Assembly: GCA_041494445.1 (NCBI GenBank)
Contig: JBGQAU010000003.1
Coordinates: 1,018-65,017, forward strand
Reading direction: 5' to 3'
Length of the DNA stretch: 64,000 nt
Source of the DNA: Acidobacteriota bacterium
Lineage (GTDB): Bacteria > Acidobacteriota > Polarisedimenticolia > Polarisedimenticolales > JAIQFR01
Part shown: piece after piece, positions 4,256-29,511 of the stretch
Layout: every line of letters begins with the position of its first letter
Position numbering within the stretch: position 1 is the first letter of the stretch
Made by a program: the position numbers and the translations under genes
The notes under the pieces: generated by a model
What the model was told of the DNA's origin: nothing
Databases searched by the model: none
The model's input: the letters and a program-made list of their open reading frames with translations, nothing else

Positions 4256-4324
4256 AGCGAAGGAGCCGGGGCGTCGTGCATTACATCTTCGACATAGGCG
4301 TCACGGATCGTCCGGCTGATGCGT

Positions 4325-5686: not shown

Positions 5687-5720
5687 CCTACTGAGGGACC
5701 CGGGCGGTCCCCCTCGCGGC

Positions 5721-5915: not shown

Positions 5916-6060
5916 CCACCCCAGCGATGAGGAGATGTCCCGCAGAATCCGGACGCTGGCCTGCTGACTCGGTTCGCCCCCCGCGCCGCAGGTCGTCTCC
6001 CTGTTCAGATGCGTCGCCGTCGCCCGCTCGGGAGTACAGATGTGCCGCGGAACCTTGTTC

Positions 6061-7398: not shown

Positions 7399-7456
7399 GA
7401 ACGCTCGTGATCGCCCAACCTGGGGCGAGTTACTGCGGGCTCGCATCCCGCCTGCC

Positions 7457-7492
7457 CCCGGCTCGCGAAGCAGCGAGGCGCGGCGAGCCGGG
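7457..7492 (-). terminator. GC-rich hairpin downstream of the Abi_C-like gene (possible terminator or insulator)
   Basis: CCCGGCTCGC (7457-7466) pairs with GCGAGCCGGG (7483-7492), giving a 10-bp stem and a 16-nt loop. There is no U-tract, so confidence is low. Confidence 0.25.
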
Positions 7493-7520
7493 CTCCTCTG
7501 TTACCTATCTCCCCGACCGC

Positions 7521-8354: not shown

Positions 8355-8467
8355 CGCGCTATTCAGATCCGGCTAGACGATCCAGCTGACCCACCGGCGG
8401 GACCGGCGCGGGCGCCGCGCTGTTTGGAACGCCCGTGATAGGCCGGACCGTCAGCTTGGCGCGCGCG

Positions 8468-9313: not shown

Positions 9314-9636
9314 CTCTTGTGCCCTCTCTCCTGCGTCAACCCTGCACCTGACCCGCCGCCCTGCGGCTCAGCCCGACGGATCCCTCGCTGTCGGGGAGCA
9401 TACGCCGGTCGTGCTCGAAGTGGAAACGGCTCTCCGCCGGCCGCTCAGAGCGAGAGAGCCCCCGTGGCGCGGCGGTCGCTGTAAACCACTTCCGCCGGCC
9501 AGACCACGGCGGCGGAGAGCGCGACGGGTTCTTCTGGACGAAAAAGGTCGCGAGTTTCGCGGAGGTGAGCGCGGAAAAGCTTGAGAATCCAGGCTCGGCC
9601 TGTTCACCACTCCCCGGGTTTTGTAGTCGAGTGGTT

Positions 9637-9660
9637 TGGCTCCCGAACCGGGACTCGAAC
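9637..9660 (-). pseudogene. tRNA 3'-terminal fragment (T-loop, 3' T-stem, 3' acceptor strand, CCA); possible att repeat or decayed tRNA
   Basis: The minus strand reads GTTCGAGTCCCGGTTCGGGAGCCA. The upstream bases cannot form the 5' T-stem, and no complementary 5' acceptor strand is present. The fragment sits at the GC-composition switch. Confidence 0.7.
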
Positions 9661-9674
9661 TATCGACGCGGTGG

Positions 9675-10082
9675 TTACGACTCGATCGCCTTCCCGCAGT
9701 ACCGGCAGAGCTTCGCGGCGGCCTTGATCGTCTCCGCGCAGTAAGGGCACGCGCGCGTCGCTCCCGGCGCGGGCGATGGGGCGCTCGGGTCGCGCGCCTG
9801 GGCTCCCTCGATCAGCTCCTTGATCCGGACGGCGTCCCTCTTGCGGTGGCCGTGGCTCGCGATCGGGTCGGAGCCGCCCGACGACTCGATCAGGATGTCG
9901 GACCAGAGGACACCGGTCTCGATCCGGACCGATGCGATCCGGTTCAGGTGGATGCTGATCTCGTTCTTCGTGAACAGCGTGCGCGTGCGCTTCACGACGA
10001 ACGTGTCCCCCACCTCGATCACCGTGGGGAACAGGTGGTTTCCCTTAGTCAGGCGGCTCGCGGCGAACGTCTCGACGGGCAT
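9675..10082 (-). CDS. Bacterial PH-domain protein with C-terminal zinc ribbon
   Basis: 135 aa. The pattern FPTVIEVGDTFVVKRTRTLFTKNEISIHLNRIASVRIETGVLWSDILIESSGG is bPH-like. The C-terminus carries CPYCAETI…CRYCG. It lies 12 nt downstream of glgP, so it is probably co-transcribed. Confidence 0.7.
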   Translation of the reverse strand: MPVETFAASRLTKGNHLFPTVIEVGDTFVVKRTRTLFTKNEISIHLNRIASVRIETGVLWSDILIESSGGSDPIASHGHRKRDAVRIKELIEGAQARDPSAPSPAPGATRACPYCAETIKAAAKLCRYCGKAIES

Positions 10083-17517: not shown

Positions 17518-18599
17518 GCCGCGACCTTCCTCATCGCGCCCTGCAGCCGGCGCAGCAGCAGGAGGATCCCCACCGCCACCGCCCCGAGGATCAGGAAGAA
17601 CAGCCACTTCGGCATCCAGTCCCACCACCACTCGAAGAACTTCACGTAGAGGAGCACGACGAGGAACGCCGTTCCGAGGACCGTCGTCTCGGTCCACCGG
17701 CTGCGCACCCCGACCCAGACCGCCACCGCGCCCACCGCGAAGCCGACGAGTTGATAGAAGATCTCGACGGCGCCCGAGGGGAGATCGATCCAGCTCAAGT
17801 GTCCCACGCTCGCCAGGATCAGAAGCGGAATGAAGATCGCGAGCAGCCCGGTCGTCCGGTACAGCTCGGGGAACGAGGGCAGTGAGCGGTGACGAGCCGT
17901 CGCGGGGATCGCCAGCAGGAGCGCCCCGGGAAGGAACAGGCTCTCCGGCCTCTCCAGGAAGTTGCCCCAGTAGCCGCCGCCCCAGCCTCCGAGGCGCCCC
18001 GATACGAACACGGTGACGGCAATGATGGCCACGAGAAGCAGAAGCCGCATGCCGCACGTGTACGCGAGGACGCCGGCGAAGAGCCCCCAGGCGAGGAACG
18101 CGTCGGGTGATGGGCCCATGTTGAAGAGGTCGCCGAGCATGAGCAGGGTCAGCCCGAAGCTCGCGATGGCCACGAGTCCGACGATCCCGGAGAAGTAGAG
18201 CGTCTTCTCCCGGCGCGCGGCGAACTCCATCCCGACGACCGAGAGGACCGGCGCGGATACCAGCAGCGCGACCTGCGCCCAGGTCGGGATCGCCCCCCAG
18301 AACCGGTAGAAGAAGAAGAACACCGCGAAGGACAGCGCGACGGCGCCCAGGAACGAGGCGATGCGCATCCCGAGGGACAGCTGTTTCTCCGCTTCGGAGC
18401 GGTCCACGTCGAACCGCCCGGCCAGGCTCTCCAGCACCTCGTCGTGGTGGTGCCGTATCCGCGCGCCGACCTCCTCCGGGAGGACGGCGACCCCGCCCGT
18501 CTCCAGCTCCCGAAGCTCGTCGCGGAACGCGCGGATCCGGTCCGCGCGCTTCTGCGCCTCCTCGCGGGTCATGGGGGAATCGGGCCGCTCCACGGTCAA
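17514..18599 (-). CDS. Polytopic inner-membrane protein with N-terminal cytoplasmic helical region
   Basis: 361 aa. A charged N-terminal helix (REEAQKRADRIRAFRDELRELE) is followed by about 9-10 hydrophobic segments. It is coupled to the downstream gene. Confidence 0.65.
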   Translation of the reverse strand: MTVERPDSPMTREEAQKRADRIRAFRDELRELETGGVAVLPEEVGARIRHHHDEVLESLAGRFDVDRSEAEKQLSLGMRIASFLGAVALSFAVFFFFYRFWGAIPTWAQVALLVSAPVLSVVGMEFAARREKTLYFSGIVGLVAIASFGLTLLMLGDLFNMGPSPDAFLAWGLFAGVLAYTCGMRLLLLVAIIAVTVFVSGRLGGWGGGYWGNFLERPESLFLPGALLLAIPATARHRSLPSFPELYRTTGLLAIFIPLLILASVGHLSWIDLPSGAVEIFYQLVGFAVGAVAVWVGVRSRWTETTVLGTAFLVVLLYVKFFEWWWDWMPKWLFFLILGAVAVGILLLLRRLQGAMRKVAA

Positions 18600-18665
18600 C
18601 GCGGGCTTCCTCCTGCTGCGCTTGCGCCGAGTCTTTCAGCGGACCTCCCCGAAGTCAAGCGCCCT

Positions 18666-18674
18666 TGATAGAAT
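18666..18674 (+). promoter_or_regulatory. Extended -10 promoter candidate upstream of the formimidoyltransferase gene
   Basis: TGaTAGAAT at 18666-18674, about 26 nt upstream of the ATG at 18700. Confidence 0.3.
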
Positions 18675-18699
18675 CCTCCTTCACCCACGGGGAGATCCC

Positions 18700-20382
18700 A
18701 TGAAGCTCATCGAGTGCGTGCCCAACTTCAGCGAGGGCAGGAACCGGGCGGTCGTCGACGCGATCACCGCCGAGATCTCGGGGACCGAGGGGGCGGTGCT
18801 CCTCGACGTGGACCCCGGCGCGGCGACGAACCGGACCGTGGTCACGTTCATCGGCCCGCCCGAGGCGGTGGAGGAGGCGGCCTTCCGCGCGATCCGGCGC
18901 GCCGCGCAGCTCATCGACATGTCGAAGCACTCGGGGGAGCACCCCCGCATGGGAGCGACCGACGTCTGCCCGTTCGTGCCCGTCCAGGGCGCGACCATGG
19001 AGGATTGCGTCGAGATCGCGCGCAAGCTCGGGAAGCGCGTCGGGGAGGATCTCGGGATCCCGGCGTACCTCTACGAGGCGGCCGCGAGCCGGCCCGGCCG
19101 TAGGTCGCTGGCCGACATCCGCAAGGGGGAGTACGAGGCGCTCCCGGAGAAGATGAAGGACCCGTCCTTCGCGCCGGACTTCGGCCCCGCCGTCTTCAAC
19201 GAGCGGAGCGGCGCCACCGTGATCGGCGCCCGCGAGTTCCTGATCGCGTACAACTTCAACCTGAACACGCGGGACAAGAAGCTCGCCCACGCCGTCGCCC
19301 AGGAGCTCAGGGAGGCCGGCAAGCCCAAGCGCGGCCCGGACGGGAAGATCGTCAAGGACGCCGAGGGCAGGACGGTCAACGCCCCCGGGCGGTTCAAGGA
19401 GTGCCGCGCGGTCGGCTGGTACATCGAGGAGTACGGCCGCGCGCAGATCTCCATCAACTTCACGAACTACAAGGTCACGTCCATCCACGAGGTGTTCGAC
19501 GCCGCCCGCGCGGAAGCCGCGAAGCGCGGCCTCCGCGTGACCGGGAGCGAGCTGGTGGGACTGATCCCGCTCGACGCGCTCCTCGCGGCGGGGGATTACT
19601 ACCTCGCGAAGCAAGGGAAGACCACGGGCGTGCCGGAGAGGGAGCGCGTGCACGCGGCGATCCTCTCCCTCGGCCTCGCCGAGCTGGCTCCGTTCGACGC
19701 CCAGCAGAAGATCATCGAGTACCGGTACCGCGGCGCGCCGAGGGGCTTGAAGGCGATGCGCCTGACGGAGTTCGCCGACGAGCTGTCGAGCGACTCCACC
19801 GCCCCGGGAGGCGGCAGCGTCGCCGCGCTCGCCGGCTCCCTCTCGGCGGCGCTCTCGAGCATGGTGGCGGCGCTCACCTGGTCGAAGGCGGGGATGGAAT
19901 CCGTGCGGCCATCCATGAAGGAGATCGGCGTCGAGGGGCAGCGGCTCAAGGACTGGTTCCTCGAGGCGGTGGACCGCGACACCGACGCGTTCAACGCGGT
20001 CCTCGCCGCGATGCGCCTCCCGAAAAAGACCGAGGAAGAGGCCGCGGAGCGCCTCGCCGCAATCGAGAAGGCGAACCAGGGCGCGGCCCGCGTTCCGCTC
20101 GAGGTCGTCGAGCGATCCGTGCGCGCCCTCGAGATGGCCGTTGCGGTCGCGCGGGACGGGAACCCGAACTCGGTGTCCGACGCCGGGGTCGCCGGCGCGT
20201 GCGCCCTCGCCGCCGCGGAGGGGGCATCCCTCAACGTGCGCATCAACGTGCCGAACCTGACGGATGCGGAGGTCGCCGGCGAGCTGCTCAAGGAGCAGGA
20301 GCGCCTCCTCGGCCGCGCCCGCGAGCTGGCCGCGGAGGTCCGCGATACGGTGGACCGCGTGCTGGCGCGCTCGGCGAAGTGA
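18700..20382 (+). CDS. ftcD: Bifunctional glutamate formimidoyltransferase / formimidoyltetrahydrofolate cyclodeaminase
   Basis: 560 aa. MKLIECVPNFSEGRNRAVVDAI…NRTVVTF…HPRMGATDVCPFVP is the formiminotransferase signature. The C-terminal half (APGGGSVAALAGSLSAAL…DTDAFNAV…) is cyclodeaminase-like. Confidence 0.9.
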   Translation: MKLIECVPNFSEGRNRAVVDAITAEISGTEGAVLLDVDPGAATNRTVVTFIGPPEAVEEAAFRAIRRAAQLIDMSKHSGEHPRMGATDVCPFVPVQGATMEDCVEIARKLGKRVGEDLGIPAYLYEAAASRPGRRSLADIRKGEYEALPEKMKDPSFAPDFGPAVFNERSGATVIGAREFLIAYNFNLNTRDKKLAHAVAQELREAGKPKRGPDGKIVKDAEGRTVNAPGRFKECRAVGWYIEEYGRAQISINFTNYKVTSIHEVFDAARAEAAKRGLRVTGSELVGLIPLDALLAAGDYYLAKQGKTTGVPERERVHAAILSLGLAELAPFDAQQKIIEYRYRGAPRGLKAMRLTEFADELSSDSTAPGGGSVAALAGSLSAALSSMVAALTWSKAGMESVRPSMKEIGVEGQRLKDWFLEAVDRDTDAFNAVLAAMRLPKKTEEEAAERLAAIEKANQGAARVPLEVVERSVRALEMAVAVARDGNPNSVSDAGVAGACALAAAEGASLNVRINVPNLTDAEVAGELLKEQERLLGRARELAAEVRDTVDRVLARSAK

Positions 20383-20435: not shown

Positions 20436-23012
20436 CTACGCCGGCAGCGACGACCAGTCGAGCTTGCCGGTCGCGACACTCGCGACGATCTTCCGGAAGA
20501 CCTCCTTCGGCCACTTGAGGACGCCGTCCACGACCAGGAGGTCGTGCCGGATCGAGATCCCGAAGAGGTCCTCGTTGAGCCTGAGGTACGGCAGGACCAC
20601 GTTCCAGTCCGCCTGCTTGAACGGCACGAAGCTCGCGCCGTTCAGCTGGTCCTCGGTCACGGTGTGGTACGGGTCGTTGAGGTAGCAGGCGCCGCCGGAC
20701 GCCAGCGAGAACAGGTTGTTCCCCGGGTACTTGGTCTCGAGCCCGATCACCTCGCCGCCGCCGTCGTAGGCGAGGCCGTTGATCACCACGAACCCGCCGC
20801 CGAGCTGGTCGCCCGCCATGAAGCTCTCGGCGCAGTAGTCGAGGCAGGTGCCGTTCAGGATCGCGCGGATCCTGCCGACCGCGTTGATCAGGGGCCGCCC
20901 CGCAGCGGAGCCCATCACGAACGCCTCGCCGCCCTTCGCCCCGTAGAGGAACGTCTGCCCGACGCTGCCGAAGACCACGATCCGTCCGGCCTTGAGGATC
21001 TGGCCCACCTGGTCCTGGGCGTCGCCGTGGACGACCAGCGTCGCGCCGTCCATCCCCGAGCCGAGGTAGTCGCCGCTCGAGCCGTAGACGTCGATCCGCA
21101 CGTCCGACGTGTCGGGCCCCAGCCCGCAGCCGAGGAAGCGGTCTCCCCGAGCGCCGTAGACCACGAAGCGGCGCCACCCGGCCGCGTGCGCGGCGACGAG
21201 AGCGCGCGACGTGGACCCCGGCCCCTCGGGGTCGAACCCTCGCGCGTCCACGACCAGGCACGCGTCGGCGGCGGGGCCGGGCGGGGCCTCCGCCGATTCA
21301 CGCGTGAGCCGGACCGCTCCCCGGCCGTCGGCCTCCGCGGGGCCGGGGAGCGCGTCGAGCTGCTCGCGGATCGCCCGGTCCGCCGCGGCGAGGATGAACG
21401 CGCGCCGCTGCCCTCGCGCCGGCCACCGGCGGTCGCGCAGGAACGTCAGCGCATCGAACGTCGCGCGCCAGCCCGCGCGACCTCCCTCGCTCCCCGCCTT
21501 CGCCGCCCCTTCCGCGAACGCTCCGAAGTCGCCGCGCCGGAGATCTTCCATCAGCGGCTGCGCGATGCGCCCTGCCGCGCCGCCCGAAGCGAGCGCGGTC
21601 CCGAACGGGACGCCGGGTAGCTCGCCGCTCCCCTCCGGCCCCCACTCGTCCCCTTCCGCCGCGGGCGCCGCGGCGGGCCGGCCGGGGCGGACGAGAACGT
21701 GCGGCGCGCGCTCCCGCGCTCCCGTCGTTCCGGCGGTCACCTCGCTCCCGAACTTGTCCCGCACGTCGAGGACGGCGCCGCCCCCGTTCCGCCTCACCGT
21801 GAAGGCGAACGCGCCGCCATCGGTGCAGCTTCCCCCGCGGGCGTTCCAGTACCGGTCCGCCACCGGCGGGACGCGCGGGTCCTCGGCGGCGAGCCCCTCG
21901 AAGAAGGCGTCGATCGCCTGCTTCTCCGAGGCGATCGCACCGTAGCTCTCGTCGCCGACCTGCATCGAGAACACTTGCGGCCGCAGCATCGAGACGTCCG
22001 TGATCCCGATGAGCTGCGGCGCGAGGGTCTTGGGCTCGGCGCGGGCCACGATGAAGAACCAGGGGCCGTCGGGGGAGCCGTGGAGGTGCGACGCCTGGAT
22101 CGCCCGGTAGATCCGCTGGCGCCGCTTGCTCAGCCGCTCGAAGTCTCCCTCGGGCGTCGGTGCTAACGCCTCGATCACGTATTCGAGCGGGTAGCCCAGG
22201 ACCCGGGTGTACAGGTCGAAGAGGAGGACCGAAACCTCGGTGTCCGTGACGAACAGCGGAACGATGCCGCGCTGGCGGAGGTACTCGGTCACCGCGTGGT
22301 AGTTCGCGAAGTCGCCGTTGTGGACCAGCGCCTCGTGGAGCCCCGCGAACGGGTGGGCGCCGCCCGGGTGCCAGACGCGGCCGCGCGTGGGATAGCGCTG
22401 GTGCCCGATCCAGAGATGGGCGAGGCGATCCTCGAGCCGGTAGAACCGCGCGATCTCCTCGGCGTACCCCACCCCCTTCAGGATCATCAGGTCGCGGCCG
22501 TGGGAGAGGACGAACGCTCCGGGACGCTCGCGGACGTAGTAGGTCCGGTTGAGCCGGAAGCTGTTCTGATAGACGATCTCGTCTTCGGCCGCCCCGCGGT
22601 CCTCGATCCCGGTCTCGGCGCGGAAGGCGTCCAGGACGTCCTCCCGCACCCGGGCGAAGTAGCGCCAGACCGCGGGAGGCCGGATCGAGAGACCGGCCTC
22701 GCGGTGGTCGTCGAGGCTCTCCTGCCGCTCGACGTGGGCGACGTCGAAGCGGGAGAAGATGAATTCCCTCTCGATCTCCTCCCGGAGCCCTTCCTCGAGG
22801 TACGCCACGTGGATCGCGTAGTGCTCGCGGAGGTCGCCGAAGAGGCCGACGGCGGCGACGCCACCTCCCTTCGCGTTTCCCCGGTTCCTCATCTGACAGC
22901 AGGGACGGATGATGAACCGGCCCGGGAGCTGTGCCGTGCCGACGATCCCGATGACGCCGCATCCCCCCTCGAGGGTCCGGCGCTCCTGCGGCATCCCGGA
23001 GACCAGGCGCAT
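20436..23012 (-). CDS. Class-II (Ntn) glutamine amidotransferase fused to a GXGXG (GltB C-terminal/FwdC-like) domain
   Basis: A short propeptide precedes CGVIGIVG. GATase-II matches include HQRYPTRGRVWHPGGAHPF…VHNGDFANY. After a long Ala/Gly/Pro linker comes VVYGARGDRFLGCGLG…VYGSSGDYLGSGMDGATLVVHGDAQDQVG…VFGSVGQTFLYGAKGGEAFVMGSAAGRP. An alternative start is at 22994. Confidence 0.85.
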   Translation of the reverse strand: MRLVSGMPQERRTLEGGCGVIGIVGTAQLPGRFIIRPCCQMRNRGNAKGGGVAAVGLFGDLREHYAIHVAYLEEGLREEIEREFIFSRFDVAHVERQESLDDHREAGLSIRPPAVWRYFARVREDVLDAFRAETGIEDRGAAEDEIVYQNSFRLNRTYYVRERPGAFVLSHGRDLMILKGVGYAEEIARFYRLEDRLAHLWIGHQRYPTRGRVWHPGGAHPFAGLHEALVHNGDFANYHAVTEYLRQRGIVPLFVTDTEVSVLLFDLYTRVLGYPLEYVIEALAPTPEGDFERLSKRRQRIYRAIQASHLHGSPDGPWFFIVARAEPKTLAPQLIGITDVSMLRPQVFSMQVGDESYGAIASEKQAIDAFFEGLAAEDPRVPPVADRYWNARGGSCTDGGAFAFTVRRNGGGAVLDVRDKFGSEVTAGTTGARERAPHVLVRPGRPAAAPAAEGDEWGPEGSGELPGVPFGTALASGGAAGRIAQPLMEDLRRGDFGAFAEGAAKAGSEGGRAGWRATFDALTFLRDRRWPARGQRRAFILAAADRAIREQLDALPGPAEADGRGAVRLTRESAEAPPGPAADACLVVDARGFDPEGPGSTSRALVAAHAAGWRRFVVYGARGDRFLGCGLGPDTSDVRIDVYGSSGDYLGSGMDGATLVVHGDAQDQVGQILKAGRIVVFGSVGQTFLYGAKGGEAFVMGSAAGRPLINAVGRIRAILNGTCLDYCAESFMAGDQLGGGFVVINGLAYDGGGEVIGLETKYPGNNLFSLASGGACYLNDPYHTVTEDQLNGASFVPFKQADWNVVLPYLRLNEDLFGISIRHDLLVVDGVLKWPKEVFRKIVASVATGKLDWSSLPA

Positions 23013-23041
23013 GCGGGAGCGGAGGATCGCGCGGGCGTCGC

Positions 23042-25930
23042 TCACGCTCGCACCTCTTCTCCCGCCGGCGCGAGGAGGTCGCGGCGGCCGCGCAGCGCGC
23101 GCACGGAGGGCAGGCCCAGCTCCCTGAGCCGCCGCGCGAAGTGCTCGGCCCAGGCGCGATAGAGGTTCGAGATCCGCGCCTCGACGAGGTCGGGCGCCAG
23201 CTGCGGCGCCAGCGCCGGGTCGGTCGTCGCGATACCGATCGGGCAGCCCCGGCCGCGCTCGCAGTTGCAGCAGCGGACGCAGTCGATGGCCACCAGCTCC
23301 GCGGTCCCGAGGACGACCCCGTCGGCCCCGAGGGCGATCGCCTTGAGCGCGTCCTCGGCGGTCCTGACGCCCCCGCTCGCCATGAGCGCCACCTCGTCGC
23401 GAATCCCCTCGGAAACCAGGAAATCGTGCGCCTGGGCGACCGCGTATTCGATCGGCTGGGCGATGTTCTTCTTGGCGATGTCCGGAGCCGCGCCGGTCCC
23501 CCCGTAGGCTCCGTCCAGGTGGATCACGTTGGCCCCGGCGTAGTAGCTCCCCACCGCGACCATGTCGACATCGGCGGCCGTCGAGACCTTCACCGAGATC
23601 AGCACCTCGGGGTGGATCGCGCGGATCCAGTCCAGGTGCTTCTTGTGGTCCTCCACCGAGTACACGGAGTGGAACGGGAACGGCGAGAAGAGCGCCGTCC
23701 CGGGGACCGCCTCGCGCATGGCCGCGACCCCCGGCGTGTTCTTCTCGGCGAGCAGGTGGCCGCCGAGCCCCGGCTTCGCCCCTTGCGCGTACTTGAACTC
23801 CACGAGGCGCGCGAGCCGGATCGTCTCCTCGCGCACGCCGAAGAGGCCGGTGGCGATCTGGGTGATCACGTGGTCGGCGTACCGCGCGAGCTCGGGCGGG
23901 TAGCCTCCCTCGCCCGTCGAGGTGAACGTCCCCCAGCGCCTCGCGGCCCGCGCGCGGCCCAGCATGACCGTAAGGGAGACCGAGCCGAACGACATGCCGC
24001 CGCCGTAGATCGGGATCGGGATCGCGACCCGCGGACCCTCGGCGCGCCGGTTCAGCTCGATCGAGAGATCCACGGGCCCGGCGTAGGGCGACGACGACGG
24101 TGCCGCGAGACGAAGCGTGTCGAACCCGCCGCCCGAGCCGCCGACGAGCAACGACTCGCCGTCCTCCGGCGGGACGCCGGTCCTCGCCTGCCGCCACGTC
24201 TCCCGCAGGAGCGGCGCGGTCCAGCGGCGGTCGCCGAGGGCGAGCTCGGTCGGGTCGTCCTCGATCCTGATCGCTTCCCAGGGGCAGACGCGGACGCAGC
24301 ACCAGTCGTTCTCGAGGCAGCCCGGGCCCAGGCAGCGCTCGTGCCGCGGCTCCTCGAGCGCGGCCTTCCCCTCCGTCCTGCGGTGGACCAGGGGCCGGCA
24401 GCTCGCGACGCACAGGCCGCAATCGGTGCAGCGCCCCCGATCCACGACGACTCGGAAGGGGCCGAGACCGGTGGCGAAGCGGTGCGGGGCGACGGCGATG
24501 GCCGTTCCCGGCTTTCCCCCCTCGCGCGTGTCGCCCTCCCTCGCGGGCGATCCCGCGACGCCCCGGCCGAGCCGGTCCAGGAAACCGCGCCGCGCCTCGT
24601 CGGCGAAGATCGCCCGCCCCGTCTCGCCGCGCAGGCGCCGCACGTCGCGCAACCCCATCGCCCCCAGGACCTCGAGGAGCTGGTCGCGCCACGCGAGCAT
24701 CAGGTTGATCACCCGCGTCGCGCCCCAGCGCACGTCCACCTCGCCGAGGCCGAGCGGACACGGGCGCCCGGCGCCGCAGTCGGGGCACACCGTGCACCCC
24801 ATGGCGATCAGGAGCGGGACGTCCACGACCAGCGCGTCGGCGCCGAGGAGAATCGCCTTCGGGACGTGCTCCGCCATGGCGATGCCGCCCGAGGCCAGGA
24901 GGGTCAGCCGGTCCCGCAGCCCGCGGTCCACCAGCGCCAGGTGGCTCTCCCTCAGACCGGAAAGGAGTGGGGTGCCGTCTTCGCCGCGACCGTCGGTCCC
25001 GGCCGCGAGATGGATCGTCTCGGCGCCCGCCTCCGCCAGCGAGACGATCTCGCGGGCGGCTCCGGCCCCCGCCGCCACGCGGACGACGGTGAGCACGTGG
25101 GGGTTGATCTCGCGCACCCGCGCGACGGCGCGGACGGGATCGCCGCCCGGAAGGAACTCGACGATCGTGGACCAGTCCAGGACCGACCGTCTTTCCTCCA
25201 GCTCGTCGGGGTGCAGGCAGACGACCAGGTGGTTGAGGTGCTCGGTGAACCGCTCCGGGCCGTCCTCCGCGCGAACCGACGCGTACGTCGTGAGGCGGCT
25301 CGCCGCCAGGGCCAGCGCCTCCGAAGCACCCGCGCCGGGGGAGAACGGCAGGAGGCCGAAGACCACGGGGATCGGGATCTCGCGGCTCGGCGGGATGTGG
25401 GACTTCAGGTTCCCCTCCGCGTCGAACTGCATGCCGCTGAGGTCGGGGAGCGCGGCGCCCAGCGTGACCGTGGTGGAGATGTGCTCGCGGCCGTGGATCC
25501 CGTCGCGGGTCGGCCGGACGATCTCGGACATGTCGGTCCAGATCCCGTCGTACCCCTCGCCGTCGAACGGACCGCCGTACCCCGCGCCGCTCACCGGGAC
25601 CTTGCCCTCGGTCGCCTGCTCCTGGAGCGAGCAGACGACCTCGGGAGGGTACGTGGCGTTGCCGAGGGCGGCGTGAATCGGGTTCCGCTCGAGCCTGAGC
25701 GCCTGGCGCGGGCAGCGGAACACGCACGCGAAGCAGTTGCGGCAGCAGGCTTCCTTCGGGTCCGCCATCCGGCGCGGATCGTCCGCGCTCCGCTCGTGGC
25801 AGTCGTAGACGCAGGCCTCGATGCAGGTCCCGCAGTTGATGCAGCGGGTCGAGCGGATCACGCGGCAGGGCCTTGGGATCGGCTTGAGTGGCGGGGCCGG
25901 ACGCGGCTTGAGCTCGTGGTTTCGGCTCAT
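23042..25930 (-). CDS. Glutamate-synthase-like FMN protein: ferredoxin domain + divergent GltB-like barrel + ferredoxin domain + canonical GltB FMN domain
   Basis: The N-terminus carries CINCGTCIEAC…CRNCFACVFRCP and the middle carries CTDCGLCVASC…CVRVCPWEAI. The canonical second domain shows GGGMSFGSVS, QGAKPGLGGHL, GAYGGTGAAP, ASGGVRT and CVRCCNCERGRGCPIGIATTD. The first domain keeps only ASGGIAMAE…GCTVCPDCGAGRPCPLGLG. Confidence 0.85.
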   Translation of the reverse strand: MSRNHELKPRPAPPLKPIPRPCRVIRSTRCINCGTCIEACVYDCHERSADDPRRMADPKEACCRNCFACVFRCPRQALRLERNPIHAALGNATYPPEVVCSLQEQATEGKVPVSGAGYGGPFDGEGYDGIWTDMSEIVRPTRDGIHGREHISTTVTLGAALPDLSGMQFDAEGNLKSHIPPSREIPIPVVFGLLPFSPGAGASEALALAASRLTTYASVRAEDGPERFTEHLNHLVVCLHPDELEERRSVLDWSTIVEFLPGGDPVRAVARVREINPHVLTVVRVAAGAGAAREIVSLAEAGAETIHLAAGTDGRGEDGTPLLSGLRESHLALVDRGLRDRLTLLASGGIAMAEHVPKAILLGADALVVDVPLLIAMGCTVCPDCGAGRPCPLGLGEVDVRWGATRVINLMLAWRDQLLEVLGAMGLRDVRRLRGETGRAIFADEARRGFLDRLGRGVAGSPAREGDTREGGKPGTAIAVAPHRFATGLGPFRVVVDRGRCTDCGLCVASCRPLVHRRTEGKAALEEPRHERCLGPGCLENDWCCVRVCPWEAIRIEDDPTELALGDRRWTAPLLRETWRQARTGVPPEDGESLLVGGSGGGFDTLRLAAPSSSPYAGPVDLSIELNRRAEGPRVAIPIPIYGGGMSFGSVSLTVMLGRARAARRWGTFTSTGEGGYPPELARYADHVITQIATGLFGVREETIRLARLVEFKYAQGAKPGLGGHLLAEKNTPGVAAMREAVPGTALFSPFPFHSVYSVEDHKKHLDWIRAIHPEVLISVKVSTAADVDMVAVGSYYAGANVIHLDGAYGGTGAAPDIAKKNIAQPIEYAVAQAHDFLVSEGIRDEVALMASGGVRTAEDALKAIALGADGVVLGTAELVAIDCVRCCNCERGRGCPIGIATTDPALAPQLAPDLVEARISNLYRAWAEHFARRLRELGLPSVRALRGRRDLLAPAGEEVRA

Positions 25931-28092
25931 GCCTTGGCCTCCCGTTCGGGCCATTCGGGGAGATCGAGGCCGAATGCGCGGGCGAAGGCCGCCCGCTCCG
26001 CGTCCGCCCTGGCGGCGAAGGTGGCGATCAGCTCCAAGGGGCGACCGTCGCGCTCCTCGATCCAGCGCTCGAGCGCCTCGTAGCACGCCACCAGCGGGAG
26101 CCGGGTCTGGCAAACCTCCTCGCAGAGCCCGCAGGCGAAGCACTGGAACGGGCGGTGCGCCTCCTCCGCGCGGACCGCCCCGCCGCGGGAAAGGGTCTCC
26201 ACGAGGTGGAGCTTCGCTCGCCCCGTGACCAGCTCCTCGCGCGTGAGCAGGTACGCCGGACAGGTGGAGACGCACGCGCCGCAGAAGGTGCATCGCTCGG
26301 CGGACTCGATCAGGAGCCGGCGCCCGCCGTCCTCCTCCGGCGCCGGAACCCGCCATCCCTCGGCGTGCGGGCGCCGCCGCGACAGCGCGCGGGCGAGCGC
26401 TCCGAGCGCGGGAGACGCCAGACCGAGCAAAGCGAGGGCCGCGGCGTTGGCCCTCGGCGCGAACAGGACGCCCGGAACGTTGCGGAGCCGGGTTCGCACA
26501 CGGAAGAACTTCCCCGGGTTGACGAGGCCCGAGGGGTCCAGCTCGCGCTTGCGCCTGGCGAGATCCCGCAGCCGGTCCGCCGGGACCGCCGCGCGCACGA
26601 ACGGCGCGTTCCAGATTCCGACCCCGTACGGGCGGCCGCCGTGCCGGATTCCGGCCCGCGTCAAGAGCTGGACCAGCCCGAGGCGGAGCGTGTAGTCGAG
26701 ACCGTTCGCCGCGTCGCACGCGAACGCGGCGATGACCACCCCCTCCGGCCCCCTTTCGCCCCGCGCCACCGACATCTCCACCGAGAGGTCGGAGCCGAAG
26801 CGCCTCGCGGCGGCCCGGGCCTCGTCGACGAAGCCGGCGACCGCGGAAAGCGGCAACACGACCTCGCTGGCGAGCAGGCTCGGCCCGAGGCGCTGGGCCT
26901 TGAGCGGGAAGAACCGCTCGGTCCACAGGTACCGGGCGGCCGTTTCGCCCGCCGCCTCGCCGCCCGCCGGGAGCCGGGCCGCCTCGGCCGGGTCGTCGAA
27001 GTGGAGGAGCACCGCGTCGCGCTCCTCCACGATCGGCTGGCCGAGATGGGTGCGATCGCGGAACAGCCGGTTCTCCTCGGCCATGCGCTCCCTGTCGTTG
27101 ACCGCGACGTGGGACGGGCGGCACGCCGAGGCGGCGAGCCGCTCGACGAACTCGAGGGCCGGGGAGAGGTCGTCGAAGTAGAGGAGGCGCGGGAGGCTGG
27201 CCGCGGGGCTCTCGCGAACGCGCAGGGTCAGCTCGGTGAAGAGACCGAGCTGCCCTTCGGTGCCGACGAAGTCACGGAGAGCGCCGTCCTCGCGGCGCAG
27301 CTCGAGGATGAGGCCGCCGGCGGTCGCGACGCGGGCGGCCAGGAGGGCGCCGGAAAACGCGCCGTGGCGGAAGCTCTCGAGCCCGAGGCCGCCGGTCGCG
27401 GCCCAGCCGCCGACGGTCGAGAACCGGCTCGAGGGGGTCGTGACCGGAACGAGCCCGTGCGGCGCTAAGTGCCTCGCGAGGTCCGCCCAGCGCACTCCGG
27501 GCTCCACCCTCGCGACCCGTGCCGCCGCATCGATCTCGAGGACGCGAGCCATCGCGGAGAAGTCGGCCACGATGCCGTTCCGGGTCGGAACGGCGCCGCC
27601 GAACGCCGACGAGGAGACACCCCGCGGGAACACCGGGAGGCGCCTCTCGGACGCGAAACGCAGGATCTCGACGACGTCCGCCTCGGCGCGCGGCTGCACC
27701 ACGACGAGGGGGGTCGAGCGGTGCAGAAGTCCCCCGATCACGCGCGGGACCCGCGCCAGGTCACGCCGGTAGAGCCGCCGCTCGAAGCCGCCTGTCGTCA
27801 CCCGGCAGCCGTCTCCGAGCCGTCTCCCGAGGTCCGTGGCCAGCGCGGCCACCATCCGAGCCCGCCGCGGCGTGTCCTGGTCGAGCAGGTGGAGGGCATA
27901 GAGCTTGAGGCGCGCCTGAGGCGCGCCGACGATGGCGTAGGCGGCGAGGCGGACCAAGCCCCACGGCGAGAGGGCCGCGCCCTCTCCCTCGAGGAGACGG
28001 GCCACCGGGCGCGGCGGCTCGAGGCCGTCGCGGACCCTGTGCCGCTCCGCCGCCCTCTTCGCGCGATCTCTCCAGAATTCAGACCAGGACAT
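25927..28092 (-). CDS. FAD-linked oxidase (FAD_binding_4 / GlcD-like) fused to a 2x[4Fe-4S] ferredoxin-type C-terminal domain
   Basis: Matches include VVVQPRAEADVVEILRFASERRLPVFPRGVSSSAFGGAVP and STVGGWAATGGLG. The C-terminus carries CTFCGACVSTCP…CFACGLCEEVC. The stop overlaps the downstream start (ATGA). Confidence 0.85.
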   Translation of the reverse strand: MSWSEFWRDRAKRAAERHRVRDGLEPPRPVARLLEGEGAALSPWGLVRLAAYAIVGAPQARLKLYALHLLDQDTPRRARMVAALATDLGRRLGDGCRVTTGGFERRLYRRDLARVPRVIGGLLHRSTPLVVVQPRAEADVVEILRFASERRLPVFPRGVSSSAFGGAVPTRNGIVADFSAMARVLEIDAAARVARVEPGVRWADLARHLAPHGLVPVTTPSSRFSTVGGWAATGGLGLESFRHGAFSGALLAARVATAGGLILELRREDGALRDFVGTEGQLGLFTELTLRVRESPAASLPRLLYFDDLSPALEFVERLAASACRPSHVAVNDRERMAEENRLFRDRTHLGQPIVEERDAVLLHFDDPAEAARLPAGGEAAGETAARYLWTERFFPLKAQRLGPSLLASEVVLPLSAVAGFVDEARAAARRFGSDLSVEMSVARGERGPEGVVIAAFACDAANGLDYTLRLGLVQLLTRAGIRHGGRPYGVGIWNAPFVRAAVPADRLRDLARRKRELDPSGLVNPGKFFRVRTRLRNVPGVLFAPRANAAALALLGLASPALGALARALSRRRPHAEGWRVPAPEEDGGRRLLIESAERCTFCGACVSTCPAYLLTREELVTGRAKLHLVETLSRGGAVRAEEAHRPFQCFACGLCEEVCQTRLPLVACYEALERWIEERDGRPLELIATFAARADAERAAFARAFGLDLPEWPEREAKA

Positions 28093-28173: not shown

Positions 28174-29511
28174 CTAGGTGCTCCTTTTCAGCTTCTCCCT
28201 CAGCGTCTTGCGATCGATGCCCAGGATCTCCGCGGCCCGCGTGCGGTTGTCGCCGACGGCCACCAGCACGCTTCGGACGTGCGCGGCCTCCACCTGTGCG
28301 AGGGTCGAAAGCCGCGCCGGATCCCGCTGCGCAGAATAGCGCAGGAGCGCCGGCAAGTCCGGAACGTCTACCGAGTCCGCGCCGCTCCGCGCCACGAGCC
28401 ATCGGACGAGGTCGGCGAGCTCGCCGACGTTGCCCGGCCAAACGTGCTCCATGAGCGCGGCGATCGTCCGCTCGGAGAAGCGCGGCGTGGCACGACCGAC
28501 CCCCGCGGCGAAACGCCGCGCGAAGTGGTCCACGAGCACCGGCACGTCGGCGAGTCGCTCGCGAAGCGGGGGCAAGGAGATCTCGATTCCGGGCAGCACC
28601 TCACCCCGCTCGGTCCGCGGGCTCCGACCGCGGGAGGGATCTCCCGCCTCGGCGGCCACGGTCACGATCACCCGAGCGGACACGGCACCGCTCCCACGGG
28701 CCCCGGACCGGCCGGACGCCCCGGCGCGGAGAACGCGGGCGAGCACCTTGTGCAACTCCGGGTCGGCCTCGTCGAAACACTCCAGAACCAGCGTTCCGCC
28801 TCTGGCCGCGGCAACGAGCCCCGGGTCCGCGCCCCATCTCGCGCCCGAGCCGCGCTCGGCCTCCCCGACCAACTCGCGGGCGAGGTGGCGCCCCGGAACG
28901 GGCTCGCAGTCGAACCGCACGAACGGACGGCGCGCGCGCGCTCCCGCGAGGTGGAGCACCCGGGCGACGAGCGATTTCCCGGTCCCGTGCTCCCCGACGA
29001 CCCTCACGGCGTCGGAGCTCGCGGCCGCCCGCTCCACGGCCGCCATGACGGCCCGCATCGCCTCGGAGTTCCCGACGAGGGCGCCGAGGGGCCCCAGCGC
29101 GCGTCGATCCTCGGTGGGGAAGGCGCGGCGGGAGCGCAGCTTCGCGACCGCCCGTTCGACCGCCGCCGTCAGCTCCTCGCCGGTGAACGGCTTGGAGAGG
29201 TAGTCCTCCGCGCCGATCTTGACCGCCTGGATGGCGCTCTCCACCGTCGGGTAGCCGGTGATCATGAGCACTTCGGTGTACCTGTGGTTCTCCCGCACGT
29301 GCCGGACCAACTCGAGTCCGGAGGCCCCCGGCATCTTGAGGTCGGTCACCACCACGTCGAAGGGGGTCTTGCGCAACATCCTCACCGCCTCGGCCACGCC
29401 CGGCGCGGTGGCCACCGAGTAGCCCTGCAAGGTGAGGTTGCGCTCCAGCACCTCGAGCGTATCGGGCGAGTCGTCCACCAGCAGGATGCGCTCACCTGTC
29501 GACGGCGCCAT
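28174..29511 (-). CDS. NtrC-family response regulator (receiver + degenerate sigma54-interaction AAA+ domain + Fis-type HTH)
   Basis: The receiver shows ILLVDDSPD…VVTDLKMPG…KPF. Walker A is GEHGTGKS. LPPLRER and WPGNVGEL are present, and the HTH is RTRAAEILGIDRKTLREKL. The GAFTGA loop, the Walker B DE pair and the FRxDLYYRL region are not recognisable. Confidence 0.85.
   Translation of the reverse strand: MAPSTGERILLVDDSPDTLEVLERNLTLQGYSVATAPGVAEAVRMLRKTPFDVVVTDLKMPGASGLELVRHVRENHRYTEVLMITGYPTVESAIQAVKIGAEDYLSKPFTGEELTAAVERAVAKLRSRRAFPTEDRRALGPLGALVGNSEAMRAVMAAVERAAASSDAVRVVGEHGTGKSLVARVLHLAGARARRPFVRFDCEPVPGRHLARELVGEAERGSGARWGADPGLVAAARGGTLVLECFDEADPELHKVLARVLRAGASGRSGARGSGAVSARVIVTVAAEAGDPSRGRSPRTERGEVLPGIEISLPPLRERLADVPVLVDHFARRFAAGVGRATPRFSERTIAALMEHVWPGNVGELADLVRWLVARSGADSVDVPDLPALLRYSAQRDPARLSTLAQVEAAHVRSVLVAVGDNRTRAAEILGIDRKTLREKLKRST

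What the first reader, a model, noticed from the sequence alone, without database searches (positions are those of the whole stretch)
20436..28092. Non-canonical split glutamate-synthase-like operon with an FAD/FeS oxidoreductase in place of GltD
Seen: three translationally coupled or closely spaced genes.
- An FAD_binding_4 oxidase fused to a 2x[4Fe-4S] domain.
- A 962-aa protein with two ferredoxin inserts and two GltB-type FMN barrels.
- A GATase-II domain (CGVIG, after a propeptide of 11-17 residues that must be removed to expose Cys1) fused through a linker of about 200 aa to a GXGXG domain.
No GltD-type NAD(P)H subunit is present.
Established: archaeal-type GOGAT, the glxBCD paralogues and N-methylglutamate synthase (mgsABC) all use this split domain set.
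Inference: this could be an ammonium-assimilating GOGAT with a novel electron-input module, or an NMG-synthase-like amine-assimilation enzyme. The adjacent NtrBC-like pair and the divergent amtB support a role in nitrogen metabolism. The substrate cannot be told from sequence.
Basis: partly seen in the sequence, partly recalled or inferred. Interest (0 to 1): 0.6.

Follow-up and report, generated by a model that had tools for sequence, protein, structure and literature searches.

The report
Glutamate synthase with a new flavoprotein subunit
Three overlapping genes encode what is most likely the cell's only glutamate synthase, in which a lactate-dehydrogenase-like FAD/iron-sulfur protein replaces the usual NADPH-binding subunit; the module is widespread in uncultured bacteria and archaea, and I found no paper describing it.

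Summary
On the minus strand, three genes with 4-bp overlaps encode:
- A: 721 aa, a VAO/PCMH-type FAD domain plus 2x[4Fe-4S].
- B: 962 aa, two tandem ferredoxin + GltB-FMN-barrel modules. The first barrel is degenerate.
- C: 869 aa, an Ntn amidotransferase plus GXGXG.

A is a genuine part of the system.
- A, B and C keep this order in all 25 (B) and 18 (C) related loci that reach far enough.
- A split A-B1-B2-C form occurs in Aminicenantes, Acidobacteriota, Thermoplasmata and Methanomassiliicoccales.
- A is fused to B1 in many Chloroflexota contigs.
- Single chains of 2,526 and 3,016 aa carry the FAD, FMN-barrel and GXGXG domains.

The catalytic barrel groups with archaeal-type glutamate synthase, next to GltB. 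It lies far from GlxD/MgsC, which lack its Fe-S motif. This is the genome's only Glu_synthase and GXGXG locus.

A lacks the catalytic His/Glu set of D-2-hydroxyacid dehydrogenases, so the electron donor is unknown.

The scan had already noted the tandem barrels and the GATase-GXGXG fusion on other DNA. None of the earlier notes shown to me mentions the FAD gene. I found no paper describing it.

Verdict: a new variant of glutamate synthase.

The parts
25927..28092 (-). Gene A (721 aa): proposed electron-input subunit. Domains: N-terminal helical extension (res 1-120), FAD_binding_4 (128-265), FAD-oxidase_C cap (304-528), 2x[4Fe-4S] Fer4_8 (598-663).
   Evidence: Pfam. AlphaFold model with pLDDT 86 and pTM 0.86. 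Foldseek best matches are D-lactate dehydrogenases (TM-score by target about 0.8), followed by D-2-hydroxyglutarate dehydrogenase and AGPS (about 0.63-0.76). Eight Cys of two CxxCxxCxxxC(P) motifs are invariant in 19 homologues.
26104..26301 (-). Fer4_8 dicluster domain of A (res 598-663). No CCG domain follows it.
23042..25930 (-). Gene B (962 aa): a tandem of two [ferredoxin + GltB-type barrel] modules. It is a fusion of the genes B1 and B2, which are separate in other lineages.
25688..25861 (-). B1 ferredoxin module (res 24-81): CxxCxxCxxxC ... CxxCxxCxxxCP.
   Evidence: Sequence; Pfam Fer4_21/Fer4_9; Cys residues invariant.
24581..25678 (-). B1 degenerate barrel (res about 85-450). It lacks the substrate/FMN motifs. 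It keeps the SGGI..AEHVPKAI.GADA block and, in this genome, a CxxCxxCx5CP motif.
   Evidence: Motif alignment. The B1 clade has 100% support.
24245..24451 (-). B2 ferredoxin module (res 494-562).
   Evidence: In the fetched loci this module occurs only where gene A or a GltD-like gene lies next to the cassette.
23066..24235 (-). B2 catalytic FMN barrel (res 566-955). It carries GGMSFGS, TGEGG, AQGAKPGLGGHL, SPFPFHSVYS, GGTGAAP, SGGVRT and a 4-Cys motif, CVRCCNCERGRGCP.
   Evidence: Pfam Glu_synthase 1.3e-107. Aligned to Azospirillum and Bacillus GltS large chains at E about 1e-47. Motif table.
20436..23045 (-). Gene C (869 aa): propeptide, Ntn (class II) amidotransferase, low-conservation linker, GXGXG beta-helix domain.
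22962..23045 (-). Predicted 28-residue propeptide of C, ending in EGG before Cys1 (TGC at 22961..22959).
   Evidence: EGG|CGV(I/V)G is the same in 18 of the 19 related loci compared; in the other, L033, the script's pattern matched elsewhere. The upstream residues are also conserved (AIxxSRRxL)..
20439..21188 (-). GXGXG domain region of C (res about 620-869; Pfam match at 646-798).
   Evidence: This is the only GXGXG match in the genome.

Best explanation
A, B and C are the subunits of one iron-sulfur flavoenzyme. It is an archaeal-type (split) glutamine:2-oxoglutarate amidotransferase, that is, a glutamate synthase.

Proposed steps:
1. C loses a 28-residue propeptide, which exposes Cys1. Its amidotransferase domain then hydrolyses glutamine.
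2. The ammonia passes to the second barrel of B (B2).
3. In B2, 2-oxoglutarate is aminated to 2-iminoglutarate and reduced by FMN.
4. FMN is re-reduced one electron at a time. The electrons travel through the barrel's 4-Cys cluster and the ferredoxin modules of B, which are fed by the two [4Fe-4S] clusters and the FAD of A.

A therefore does the job that GltD does in bacterial NADPH-GOGAT, using an unrelated VAO/PCMH-type flavin domain. The first barrel (B1) is a non-catalytic paralogue. It probably serves as a scaffold and a ferredoxin carrier, as the central domain does in GltB.

Shown here: the domain content, the conserved motifs, the gene linkage, the fusions, the phylogenetic placement, and the fact that this is the genome's only Glu_synthase/GXGXG locus.

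Inferred: the reaction, the direction of electron flow, and the role of B1.

Unknown: what reduces the FAD of A.
For: Linkage
- In 27 loci from genome contigs that encode a full or partial relative of A, B follows on the same strand in all 25 whose contig continues. C follows in all 18 that reach further.
- The flanking genes differ between loci.
- The split form A-B1-B2-C, with overlapping genes, occurs in Aminicenantes, Acidobacteriota, Thermoplasmata and Methanomassiliicoccales MAGs.

Fusions
- An Anaerolineae ORF of 1200 aa consists of A (40% id, E 4e-141) plus B1 (43% id, E 2e-117).
- At least four 50%-identity clusters hold fusions of 1098-1218 aa whose single match spans the A/B1 junction. 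One cluster has nine or more full-length members from different samples.
- Chains of 2526 aa and 3016 aa carry FAD_binding_4, FAD-oxidase_C, Glu_synthase and GXGXG; Fer4_8 was detected only in the 2526-aa one.

Modularity
- In the fetched loci, B2 carries its ferredoxin module only where A is adjacent, or, in G220, where a GltD-like gene is adjacent. Loci without A also lack that module.

Chemistry
- B2 keeps the GltB motifs and aligns to solved GltS large chains at E about 1e-47. Its cluster motif has 4 Cys.
- C keeps Cys1, Arg189, Asn215-Gly216 and Asp240 (numbered from Cys1) in all sequences aligned.

Placement
- The B2 clade has 100% support. B1+B2 has 95%. GltB is the next branch out (84%). 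GlxD/MgsC lie outside.

Genome
- This is the only Glu_synthase locus and the only GXGXG locus in a genome estimated 94.9% complete. Glutamine synthetase is present.

Complex prediction: A(541-721) with B(1-570)
- Verdict: weak support. Score 0.36; best of 3 controls 0.00.
- The mark was reached by 58 of 80 solved complexes and 2 of 110 mismatched pairs.
- A score of 0.60 or under was seen in only 7 of those 80 solved complexes and in both mismatches that passed.
- The runs agree in at least 77% of contacts, and the partner's pLDDT is at least 76.
Against: - There are no enzyme or expression data.
- A lacks the H.GDGN.H and GEHG motifs of GlcD/LDHD/LctD-type enzymes. It has G.PYG.GIWN.PF instead. 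Its reductant cannot be named, and a role other than electron input is not excluded.
- The B1-B2-C form occurs without A or any adjacent flavoprotein, so A is not needed for catalysis as such.
- B2 has His where GltB has Gln in the GG(Q/H)L motif, so the substrate could differ.
- The genome also has three or four ELFV-type (GDH-like) genes, so GOGAT is not its only possible route to glutamate.
- The cluster motif of B1 is missing in some family members, so the exact electron path is uncertain.
Confidence: 0.68

Rival explanations
1. The operon encodes an N-methylglutamate-synthase/GlxBCD-like enzyme. Such an enzyme assimilates methylamine or another amine in a redox-neutral FMN cycle.
For: It uses the same set of three domain types: GATase, GXGXG and FMN barrel. 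GlxB also matches GATase_6.
Against: - GlxD/MgsC form a separate clade with 100% support, far from B2.
- tblastn of B2 against plasmids gives E about 1e-15 for MgsC-type genes, against about 1e-41 for gltB.
- GlxD/MgsC have no cysteines at the barrel cluster site and no ferredoxin modules.
- The reference operons sit beside type III GS (gmaS) and sarcosine-oxidase-like genes, which are not at this locus.
- A redox-neutral enzyme would not need an FAD subunit and up to eight Fe-S clusters.
- No SoxD match was found in the genome, but the control genomes gave no match either, so that search is uninformative.
Confidence: 0.04
2. It is one enzyme complex, but not a glutamate synthase. It is an amidotransferase-reductase that aminates and reduces a different 2-oxo acid, or that uses a different amide donor.
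For: - The Gln-to-His change in the GG(Q/H)L motif is conserved across the whole archaeal-type clade.
- The amidotransferase domain is about 400 residues long, and only its core matches known models.
- The electron-input subunit is unusual.
Against: - The Lys, Arg and Gln positions of the GltB 2-oxoglutarate/FMN site are otherwise kept. B2 is 60-85% identical across many phyla, which fits a central metabolic role.
- The GlmS-type residues that hold the amino-acid head of glutamine (Arg, Asp) are invariant.
- No other GOGAT candidate exists in this genome.
Confidence: 0.12
3. A is not the electron donor module. It is an accessory or regulatory flavoprotein, for example an oxygen or redox sensor, an output for excess electrons, or a second catalytic activity. 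Free ferredoxin reduces B directly.
For: - The B1-B2-C form works without A in other genomes.
- The active site of A differs from that of its nearest enzymes.
- The genome has an NfnAB-like pair, so it uses ferredoxin.
Against: - The ferredoxin module of B2 co-occurs with A, or with a GltD-like gene in one locus.
- A's own dicluster domain is invariant.
- The fusion order A-B1-B2-C is colinear with the gene order.
- GltD-like and A appear to be interchangeable neighbours.
Confidence: 0.12
4. The FAD/FeS gene is an unrelated neighbour that happens to lie upstream.
For: None beyond the lack of direct transcript data.
Against: - The genes overlap by 4 bp.
- The order is kept in 25 of 25 and 18 of 18 related loci across bacteria and archaea.
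- Natural fusions recur.
Confidence: 0.01

Closest known systems
Bacterial NADPH-dependent glutamate synthase GltBD (Azospirillum brasilense and Bacillus subtilis structures 2VDC, 1EA0, 6S6S, 7MFM)
   Same: - Ntn amidotransferase with Cys1.
- FMN (beta/alpha)8 barrel with the same substrate/FMN motifs.
- An Fe-S cluster at the same place in the barrel.
- A GXGXG beta-helix.
- A separate flavin plus 2x[4Fe-4S] subunit that would feed electrons in.
   Different: - The domains are split over two chains in another order: barrels in B, GATase plus GXGXG in C.
- The central domain is replaced by a degenerate second barrel.
- The barrel cluster has 4 Cys, not 3.
- There are two extra ferredoxin modules.
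- The flavoprotein is a VAO/PCMH-fold FAD_binding_4 protein. It is not the adrenodoxin-reductase-like GltD and has no NAD(P)H-binding Rossmann domain.
Archaeal-type split glutamate synthase (barrel paralogue, catalytic barrel, GATase-GXGXG fusion), biochemically uncharacterised
   Same: - The window's B and C belong to this group. B2 is 60-67% identical to the stand-alone subunits.
- The tree places them in one clade with 100% support.
   Different: - Here B1 and B2 are fused. The fusion arose once: the fused forms make one clade with 99% support, nested in the split form.
- The cassette starts with gene A.
- Forms without A also lack the ferredoxin module on B2.
GlxBCD / N-methylglutamate synthase MgsABC (Rhizobium etli p42e, Aminobacter p2, Acinetobacter plasmid loci)
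   Same: The three domain types are encoded by neighbouring genes.
   Different: - The gene order is GATase, GXGXG, FMN, as three separate genes.
- There are no Fe-S cysteines and no ferredoxin modules.
- These operons are linked to gmaS and sarcosine-oxidase-like genes.
- They form a distant clade.
FAD-dependent D-2-hydroxyacid dehydrogenases (D-lactate dehydrogenase LDHD 8JDE, 9QGZ; D2HGDH 6LPN; LctD of Ldh-EtfAB 7QH2; GlcD)
   Same: - The fold of A, residues about 120-530 (Foldseek E down to 3e-23; TM-score by target about 0.8 for the D-lactate dehydrogenases and LctD).
- An intact FAD-binding motif set.
- As in GlcDEF and YdiJ, the flavin domain is combined with a Fer4_8 dicluster domain.
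   Different: - The H.GDGN.H and GEHG motifs that GlcD, LDHD and LctD share are absent. From my own knowledge, these carry the metal-binding His, His and Glu and the catalytic His. A has an invariant Pro-Tyr and a GIWN.PF block instead.
- A has a 120-residue N-terminal extension with no Pfam match.
- A has no CCG domain.

Membership tests
Glutamate synthase (GltS/GOGAT) | N-terminal-nucleophile class II amidotransferase: Cys1 exposed after propeptide removal, plus Arg, Asn-Gly and Asp of the glutamine site | tested here: met
   EGG|CGV is the same in 18 of the 19 related loci compared; in L033 the script's pattern matched elsewhere. R189, N215-G216 and D240 (numbered from Cys1) are invariant in the alignment. 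Matches to GATase_6, glmS and purF models.
Glutamate synthase (GltS/GOGAT) | FMN (beta/alpha)8 synthase domain with the 2-oxoglutarate/FMN motifs | tested here: met
   Pfam Glu_synthase 1.3e-107. Aligns to GltS large chains at E about 1e-47. GGMSFGS, TGEGG, AQGAKPG, SPxPxH, GGTGAAP and SGGxRT are kept. There is one change: GGQL becomes GGHL.
Glutamate synthase (GltS/GOGAT) | Fe-S cluster in the synthase barrel next to FMN (3 Cys in GltB: C1102, C1108, C1113 of Azospirillum) | tested here: met
   The three Cys align, and a fourth is added, giving CxxCxxCx5CP. The cluster type was not determined.
Glutamate synthase (GltS/GOGAT) | C-terminal GXGXG beta-helix domain | tested here: met
   Pfam GXGXG 1.4e-12 in C.
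Glutamate synthase (GltS/GOGAT) | GltB central domain between the amidotransferase and FMN domains | tested here: inconclusive
   No Glu_syn_central match for the window protein. hhalign of the B family against a GltB central domain gives probability 3%, E 0.014. A degenerate barrel (B1) is present instead.
Glutamate synthase (GltS/GOGAT) | Electron supply by GltD (NAD(P)H) or by plant-type ferredoxin | tested here: not met
   No GltD in the operon. The only clear GltD-like gene in the genome sits in an NfnAB-type pair on contig C73. Use of ferredoxin cannot be tested here.
Glutamate synthase (GltS/GOGAT) | Catalysis: glutamine + 2-oxoglutarate + 2 e- gives 2 glutamate | not testable with these tools
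   This needs an enzyme assay.
Archaeal-type split GOGAT cassette (B1-B2-C) | Degenerate barrel paralogue, then catalytic barrel, then GATase-GXGXG fusion, in that order | tested here: met
   Same order in all fetched loci. The B1 and B2 clades each have 100% support.
GlxBCD / MgsABC (N-methylglutamate synthase) | FMN subunit of the GlxD/MgsC clade, without Fe-S cysteines | tested here: not met
   Separate clade. GlxD/MgsC read GDNAYDDWHEGKDPAG where B2 has its 4 Cys.
GlxBCD / MgsABC (N-methylglutamate synthase) | Linkage to gmaS (type III GS) and N-methylglutamate dehydrogenase (sarcosine-oxidase-like) genes | tested here: not met
   These genes are present at the reference loci. They are absent from the window's neighbourhood. 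The genome-wide SoxD search was uninformative.
GlcD/LDHD-type FAD-dependent D-2-hydroxyacid dehydrogenases (for subunit A) | VAO/PCMH fold with FAD_binding_4 and FAD-oxidase_C domains | tested here: met
GlcD/LDHD-type FAD-dependent D-2-hydroxyacid dehydrogenases (for subunit A) | Metal-binding His, His, Glu and catalytic His (motifs H.GDGN.H and GEHG) | tested here: not met
   Profile alignments to 9QGZ and 7QH2 show no counterpart. The A family has G.PYG.GIWN.PF, with Y489 invariant. The roles of these residues come from my own knowledge of the family.

The most novel reading that the evidence does not exclude
Subunit A is itself a substrate dehydrogenase. Its remodelled VAO-type active site oxidises a small organic two-electron donor, and the electrons run straight through the cluster chain to reduce 2-iminoglutarate. 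The donor would be a hydroxy acid or another metabolite, not NAD(P)H and not ferredoxin. That would be a third class of glutamate synthase, independent of both pyridine nucleotides and ferredoxin. It would also identify the reductant for those archaeal-type enzymes that carry subunit A.
Probability: 0.3. Interest if true: 0.8.

Novelty: new variant of a known kind. Interest (0 to 1): 0.62.

Why it matters
Two electron supplies for glutamate synthase have been characterised: GltD with NAD(P)H, and ferredoxin. The split archaeal-type enzymes have no assigned reductant. A 2021 review says only that ORFs for the single domains exist in Archaea (PMC8097209).

This locus and its relatives show a self-contained cassette, in many uncultured bacterial and archaeal lineages, in which a VAO/PCMH-type FAD/Fe-S protein is linked or fused to the synthase. 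That gives a concrete, testable candidate for the missing electron-input subunit. It also provides a defined three-gene construct to express.

It affects metabolic reconstructions too. These proteins are now named 'alpha-hydroxy-acid oxidizing protein', 'FAD-binding protein' or 'glycolate oxidase'. Genomes such as this one may therefore be scored as lacking GOGAT.

Tried and rejected
- Promoter search. The 81-bp gap between the regulator and A holds no sigma-54 -24/-12 match. The wider window shows no excess of the loose pattern (12 found, 7.5 expected). No sigma-70-like site or terminator lies inside the operon.
- Conserved regulatory context. tblastn with the window's regulator, kinase, AmtB, porin and FTCD proteins against the relatives' loci found none of them at a cassette locus; the few hits were to unrelated loci. 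I therefore dropped the nitrogen-regulation argument.
- SoxD as a marker for N-methylglutamate dehydrogenase. There was no match, but the control genomes gave no match either, so the result is uninformative.
- The idea that B1 descends from the GltB central domain. hhalign gave only probability 3%, and the tree puts B1 as sister of B2 after GltB branches off. This is not supported, though a short similar stretch exists.
- Reading A as an ordinary D-lactate, glycolate or D-2-hydroxyglutarate dehydrogenase. Rejected because the catalytic motif set is missing.
- Literature. Seven full-text searches and one on 'archaeal-type' names found no description of this subunit combination.
- A call that tried to translate a whole locus failed. 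The second GS-like gene on contig C14 was not typed.


Full report
**What is in the window**

The stretch 20436-28092 holds three minus-strand genes.
- A: 28092..25927, 721 aa, ATG start, with GGGAGG and GAAGG upstream.
- B: 25930..23042, 962 aa. Its ATG overlaps the stop of A as ATGA.
- C: 23045..20436, 869 aa. Its GTG overlaps the stop of B as GTGA.

Pfam and NCBIfam give the following.
- A: FAD_binding_4, FAD-oxidase_C and a Fer4_8 dicluster domain.
- B: two Glu_synthase stretches, each preceded by ferredoxin-type Cys motifs.
- C: a class II amidotransferase core (GATase_6; weak matches to glmS and purF) and GXGXG.

The halves of B are 26% identical over their whole length (E 4e-30). The region has about 72-74% G+C, so many spurious ORFs overlap it.

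**Anatomy in detail**

I aligned 49 barrels.

The second barrel, B2, keeps the GltB blocks: GGMSFGS, TGEGG, Q(I/V)A(T/S)G.FGV, AQGAKPGxGG(H)L, the following Arg, SPFPFHSVYS, DGxYGGTGAAP, SGG(V/I)RT and GADG. It aligns to the solved Azospirillum and Bacillus large chains at E about 1e-47.
- In that alignment the three cluster cysteines of Azospirillum GltS (1102, 1108, 1113 by chain numbering, which agrees with my memory of the literature) are matched.
- A fourth Cys is added, giving CxxCxxCx5CP.
- The one notable change is His for Gln in GGQL. It is shared by the whole archaeal-type clade.

The first barrel, B1, lacks a 44-residue stretch that holds AQGAKPG to SPFPFH. It also lacks GGMSFGS, TGEGG and GGTGAAP.
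- It keeps the SGGI..AEHVPKAI.GADA block and a very conserved C-terminal WRDQLLEVLGAMG.R.VRRLRGE.GRA.F segment.
- Its own 4-Cys motif is present in the window, in the Eisenbacteria relative and in the Thermoplasmata relative. It is absent in Aminicenantes and in the forms without A.

In C, EGG|CGV(I/V)G is the same in 18 of the 19 related loci compared (in L033 the script's pattern matched elsewhere).
- R189, N215-G216 and D240, counted from Cys1, are invariant. These are the GlmS/PurF-type glutamine-site residues.
- The residues before the Cys are also conserved. The GTG at 23045 is therefore the likely start, and the propeptide is 28 residues long.

**Gene A belongs to the system**

A scan of one genome per species with an A-family alignment found 27 loci with true relatives. 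All are MAGs: Eisenbacteria, Aminicenantes, Myxococcota, Acidobacteriota, Gemmatimonadetes and others.
- In all 25 loci whose contig goes on, B follows. In all 18 that reach further, C follows.
- The flanks differ between loci.
- Stand-alone B2 proteins 60-66% identical to the window's second half lie in four-gene cassettes A-B1-B2-C in Aminicenantes, Acidobacteriota, Thermoplasmata and Methanomassiliicoccales. A Planctomycetota contig starts inside A.

Fusions give further support.
- An Anaerolineae contig has A and B1 in one 1200-aa ORF.
- An exhaustive HMMER search with that ORF found further fusions of 1098-1218 aa in at least four 50%-identity clusters. One cluster has nine or more full-length members from different samples.
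- It also found chains of 2526 and 3016 aa that carry FAD_binding_4, FAD-oxidase_C, Glu_synthase and GXGXG, in the same order as the genes; Fer4_8 was detected only in the 2526-aa chain.
- These fusions rule out chance adjacency and make a physical complex very likely.

A complex prediction of A(541-721) with B(1-570) gave weak support only.
- The score was 0.36, and the best of 3 controls scored 0.00.
- The mark was reached by 58 of 80 solved complexes and 2 of 110 mismatched pairs.
- A score of 0.60 or under was seen in only 7 of those 80 and in both mismatches that passed.
- The runs agree in at least 77% of contacts, and the partner's pLDDT is at least 76.

**A is an exchangeable electron-input module**

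I sampled 251 genomes of the window's phylum.
- Most have a classic GltB of about 1500 aa.
- Twelve others have a B2-type barrel.
- Seven others have an A-like gene, about 35% identical.

Fetching the regions showed three arrangements.
- With A: both B1 and B2 carry ferredoxin modules (G010, G217, G057, G144).
- Without A: B2 has no ferredoxin module (G129, G234, G006, G045, G071). No flavoprotein gene lies nearby in G129.
- One locus, G220, has ferredoxin-bearing B1 and B2, no A, and a GltD-like gene right after C.

The Thermoplasmata locus also has an NfnAB/GltD-like pair close by. This pattern fits a wire that runs from a flavoprotein through the ferredoxin modules to the barrel cluster and FMN.

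**Which enzyme**

The tree (IQ-TREE, LG+C20, SH-aLRT supports) shows the following.
- All B2 barrels form one clade (100%), and all B1 barrels form another (100%).
- The two are sisters (95%).
- GltB is the next branch out (84%).
- The stand-alone 'FMN-binding glutamate synthase family' and GlxD/MgsC lie further out.
- The fused B forms one clade (99%) nested within the split form with A, so the fusion happened once.

GlxD/MgsC references were identified by their context: gmaS, sarcosine-oxidase-like genes and a GlxA regulator. They lack every cluster cysteine. They match B2 far less well than gltB does (E about 1e-15 against about 1e-41).

In the window's own genome (3.11 Mb, 94.9% complete):
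- This is the only Glu_synthase locus and the only GXGXG locus.
- A type I-like glutamine synthetase is present.
- ELFV-type dehydrogenases are also present.
- The one clear GltD-like gene sits beside a DHODB_Fe-S_bind/NAD_binding_1 gene. That is the NfnAB/SudAB arrangement, and no barrel gene is nearby.

I therefore read the operon as the organism's glutamate synthase.

**What reduces A**

The model of A is confident (pLDDT 86, pTM 0.86). Its best structural matches are D-lactate dehydrogenases, D-2-hydroxyglutarate dehydrogenase, alkyl-DHAP synthase and LctD.

Profile alignments to glycolate/D-lactate dehydrogenase 9QGZ and to LctD 7QH2 show a difference, however. Where those enzymes have H.GDGN.H and GEHG, the A family has no His pair. 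It has an invariant Pro-Tyr within G.PYG.GIWN.PF. From my own knowledge of the family, those motifs are the metal ligands and the catalytic His.
- The FAD-binding motifs are intact.
- The first 120 residues match no Pfam family.
- No conserved neighbour gene hints at a donor.
- All homologues carry generic names.

The donor therefore stays open. It could be an organic two-electron donor bound in a remodelled pocket, NAD(P)H as in the VAO-fold enzyme MurB, or something else.

**Context and regulation**

Upstream on the same strand lie a GAF histidine kinase and an NtrC-family regulator. Divergent from them lie amtB and a porin. Convergent downstream lies a formiminotransferase-cyclodeaminase gene.
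- The regulator lacks GAFTGA and has an altered Walker B region.
- No sigma-54 promoter or terminator separates it from A.
- tblastn found none of these neighbours at the relatives' cassette loci.
- They are weak evidence at best.

**Prior knowledge**

Earlier notes of this scan had already seen the tandem barrels, on this same stretch and in other genomes. They had also seen the barrel', barrel, GATase-GXGXG trio in other genomes. None of the notes shown mentions the FAD gene.

Full-text searches found no paper on this subunit combination. A 2021 review of iron-sulfur flavoenzymes says only that ORFs for single GltS domains occur in Archaea (PMC8097209). The library does not cover subscription journals, so an existing description cannot be excluded.

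**Verdict**

Its N-methylglutamate alternative is disfavoured.
- The thing is a new variant of a known kind of enzyme. It is common in uncultured lineages and, as far as I could find, uncharacterised.
- Its interest lies in the unexpected flavoprotein partner and in making the reductant of split glutamate synthases testable.

Noticed in passing
L095:3371-6973 (Anaerolineae MAG JBHIDP010000103); proteins P0366, P0367, P0369, P0371: Natural fusions of the FAD/FeS protein with the degenerate barrel protein, 1098-1222 aa. They are found in many Chloroflexota contigs from different samples.
   Followed up: yes
Proteins P0382 (2526 aa) and P0411 (3016 aa); also P0412, P0441 and P0464 (2508-3152 aa): Single giant chains on metagenome contigs. 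P0382 and P0411 carry FAD_binding_4, FAD-oxidase_C, Glu_synthase and GXGXG in the gene order, and Fer4_8 was detected in P0382. P0412 showed FAD_binding_4 and Glu_synthase. P0441 and P0464 were not scanned. The source organisms are unknown; one is labelled 'bacterium'.
   Followed up: partly
L079 (G220:C55), GltD-like match at 10257-11480, just after the GATase-GXGXG gene: A cassette with ferredoxin-bearing B1 and B2 has no FAD_binding_4 gene. Instead it has a GltD-like gene directly downstream. This looks like a swap of the electron-input module.
   Followed up: partly
L078, L080, L081, L082, L083 (G129, G234, G006, G071, G045): B1-B2-C cassettes have no gene A and no ferredoxin module on B2. 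In G129 the neighbours are an aminotransferase and a molybdate transporter. How these cassettes are reduced is unknown.
   Followed up: partly
window 28174-29511 (-): The NtrC-family response regulator just upstream has receiver, AAA+ and Fis-HTH domains. It lacks GAFTGA and reads GGTLVLECFDEA at Walker B, so it is unlikely to activate sigma-54.
   Followed up: partly
G000 contig C73 (L093:5748-6581 and 6610-8043): A DHODB_Fe-S_bind/NAD_binding_1 gene is followed by a GltD-like Fer4_20/Pyr_redox_2 gene, 29 bases downstream. This is an NfnAB/SudAB-type pair, next to an aminotransferase gene. A 54%-identical GltD-like gene with the same partner lies 1 kb from the Thermoplasmata cassette (L069:13042-15330).
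   Followed up: partly
window 24581-25678 (B1) compared with L007 and L078: The 4-Cys motif of the degenerate barrel is kept in this genome, in Eisenbacteria and in Thermoplasmata. It is lost in the Aminicenantes fused form and in cassettes without A. This cluster is therefore not an obligatory part of the wire.
   Followed up: partly
GltB central domain (L088:3169-4218; Bacillus GltS chain residues 632-677): A short stretch of the GltB central domain resembles strands 6-7 of the FMN barrel (IAxPxxxAxxxxHxxLxxxGLR...G). It is not significant (hhalign E 0.014, probability 3%; phmmer domain E 660).
   Followed up: partly
L021:4969-7134; G084:C19:1248-3125: Two relatives of gene A contain in-frame stops: one in L021, and three TGA plus one TAG in G084. 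They may be broken genes or assembly errors.
   Followed up: no
window 18361-20382 (+): A formiminotransferase-cyclodeaminase gene (FTCD_N, FTCD, FTCD_C) lies convergent to the operon. Its end is 53 bp from the stop of C. The enzyme releases glutamate from formiminoglutamate. tblastn did not find it in the relatives' loci.
   Followed up: partly
G000 contig C14 (L072:1447-2904, -): A second, weaker Gln-synt_C match (E 6.6e-37). It was not typed. It could be a GS-like ligase of another specificity.
   Followed up: no
window 1-10000 versus the rest: G+C rises from about 0.62 to about 0.71 near position 10000.
   Followed up: no
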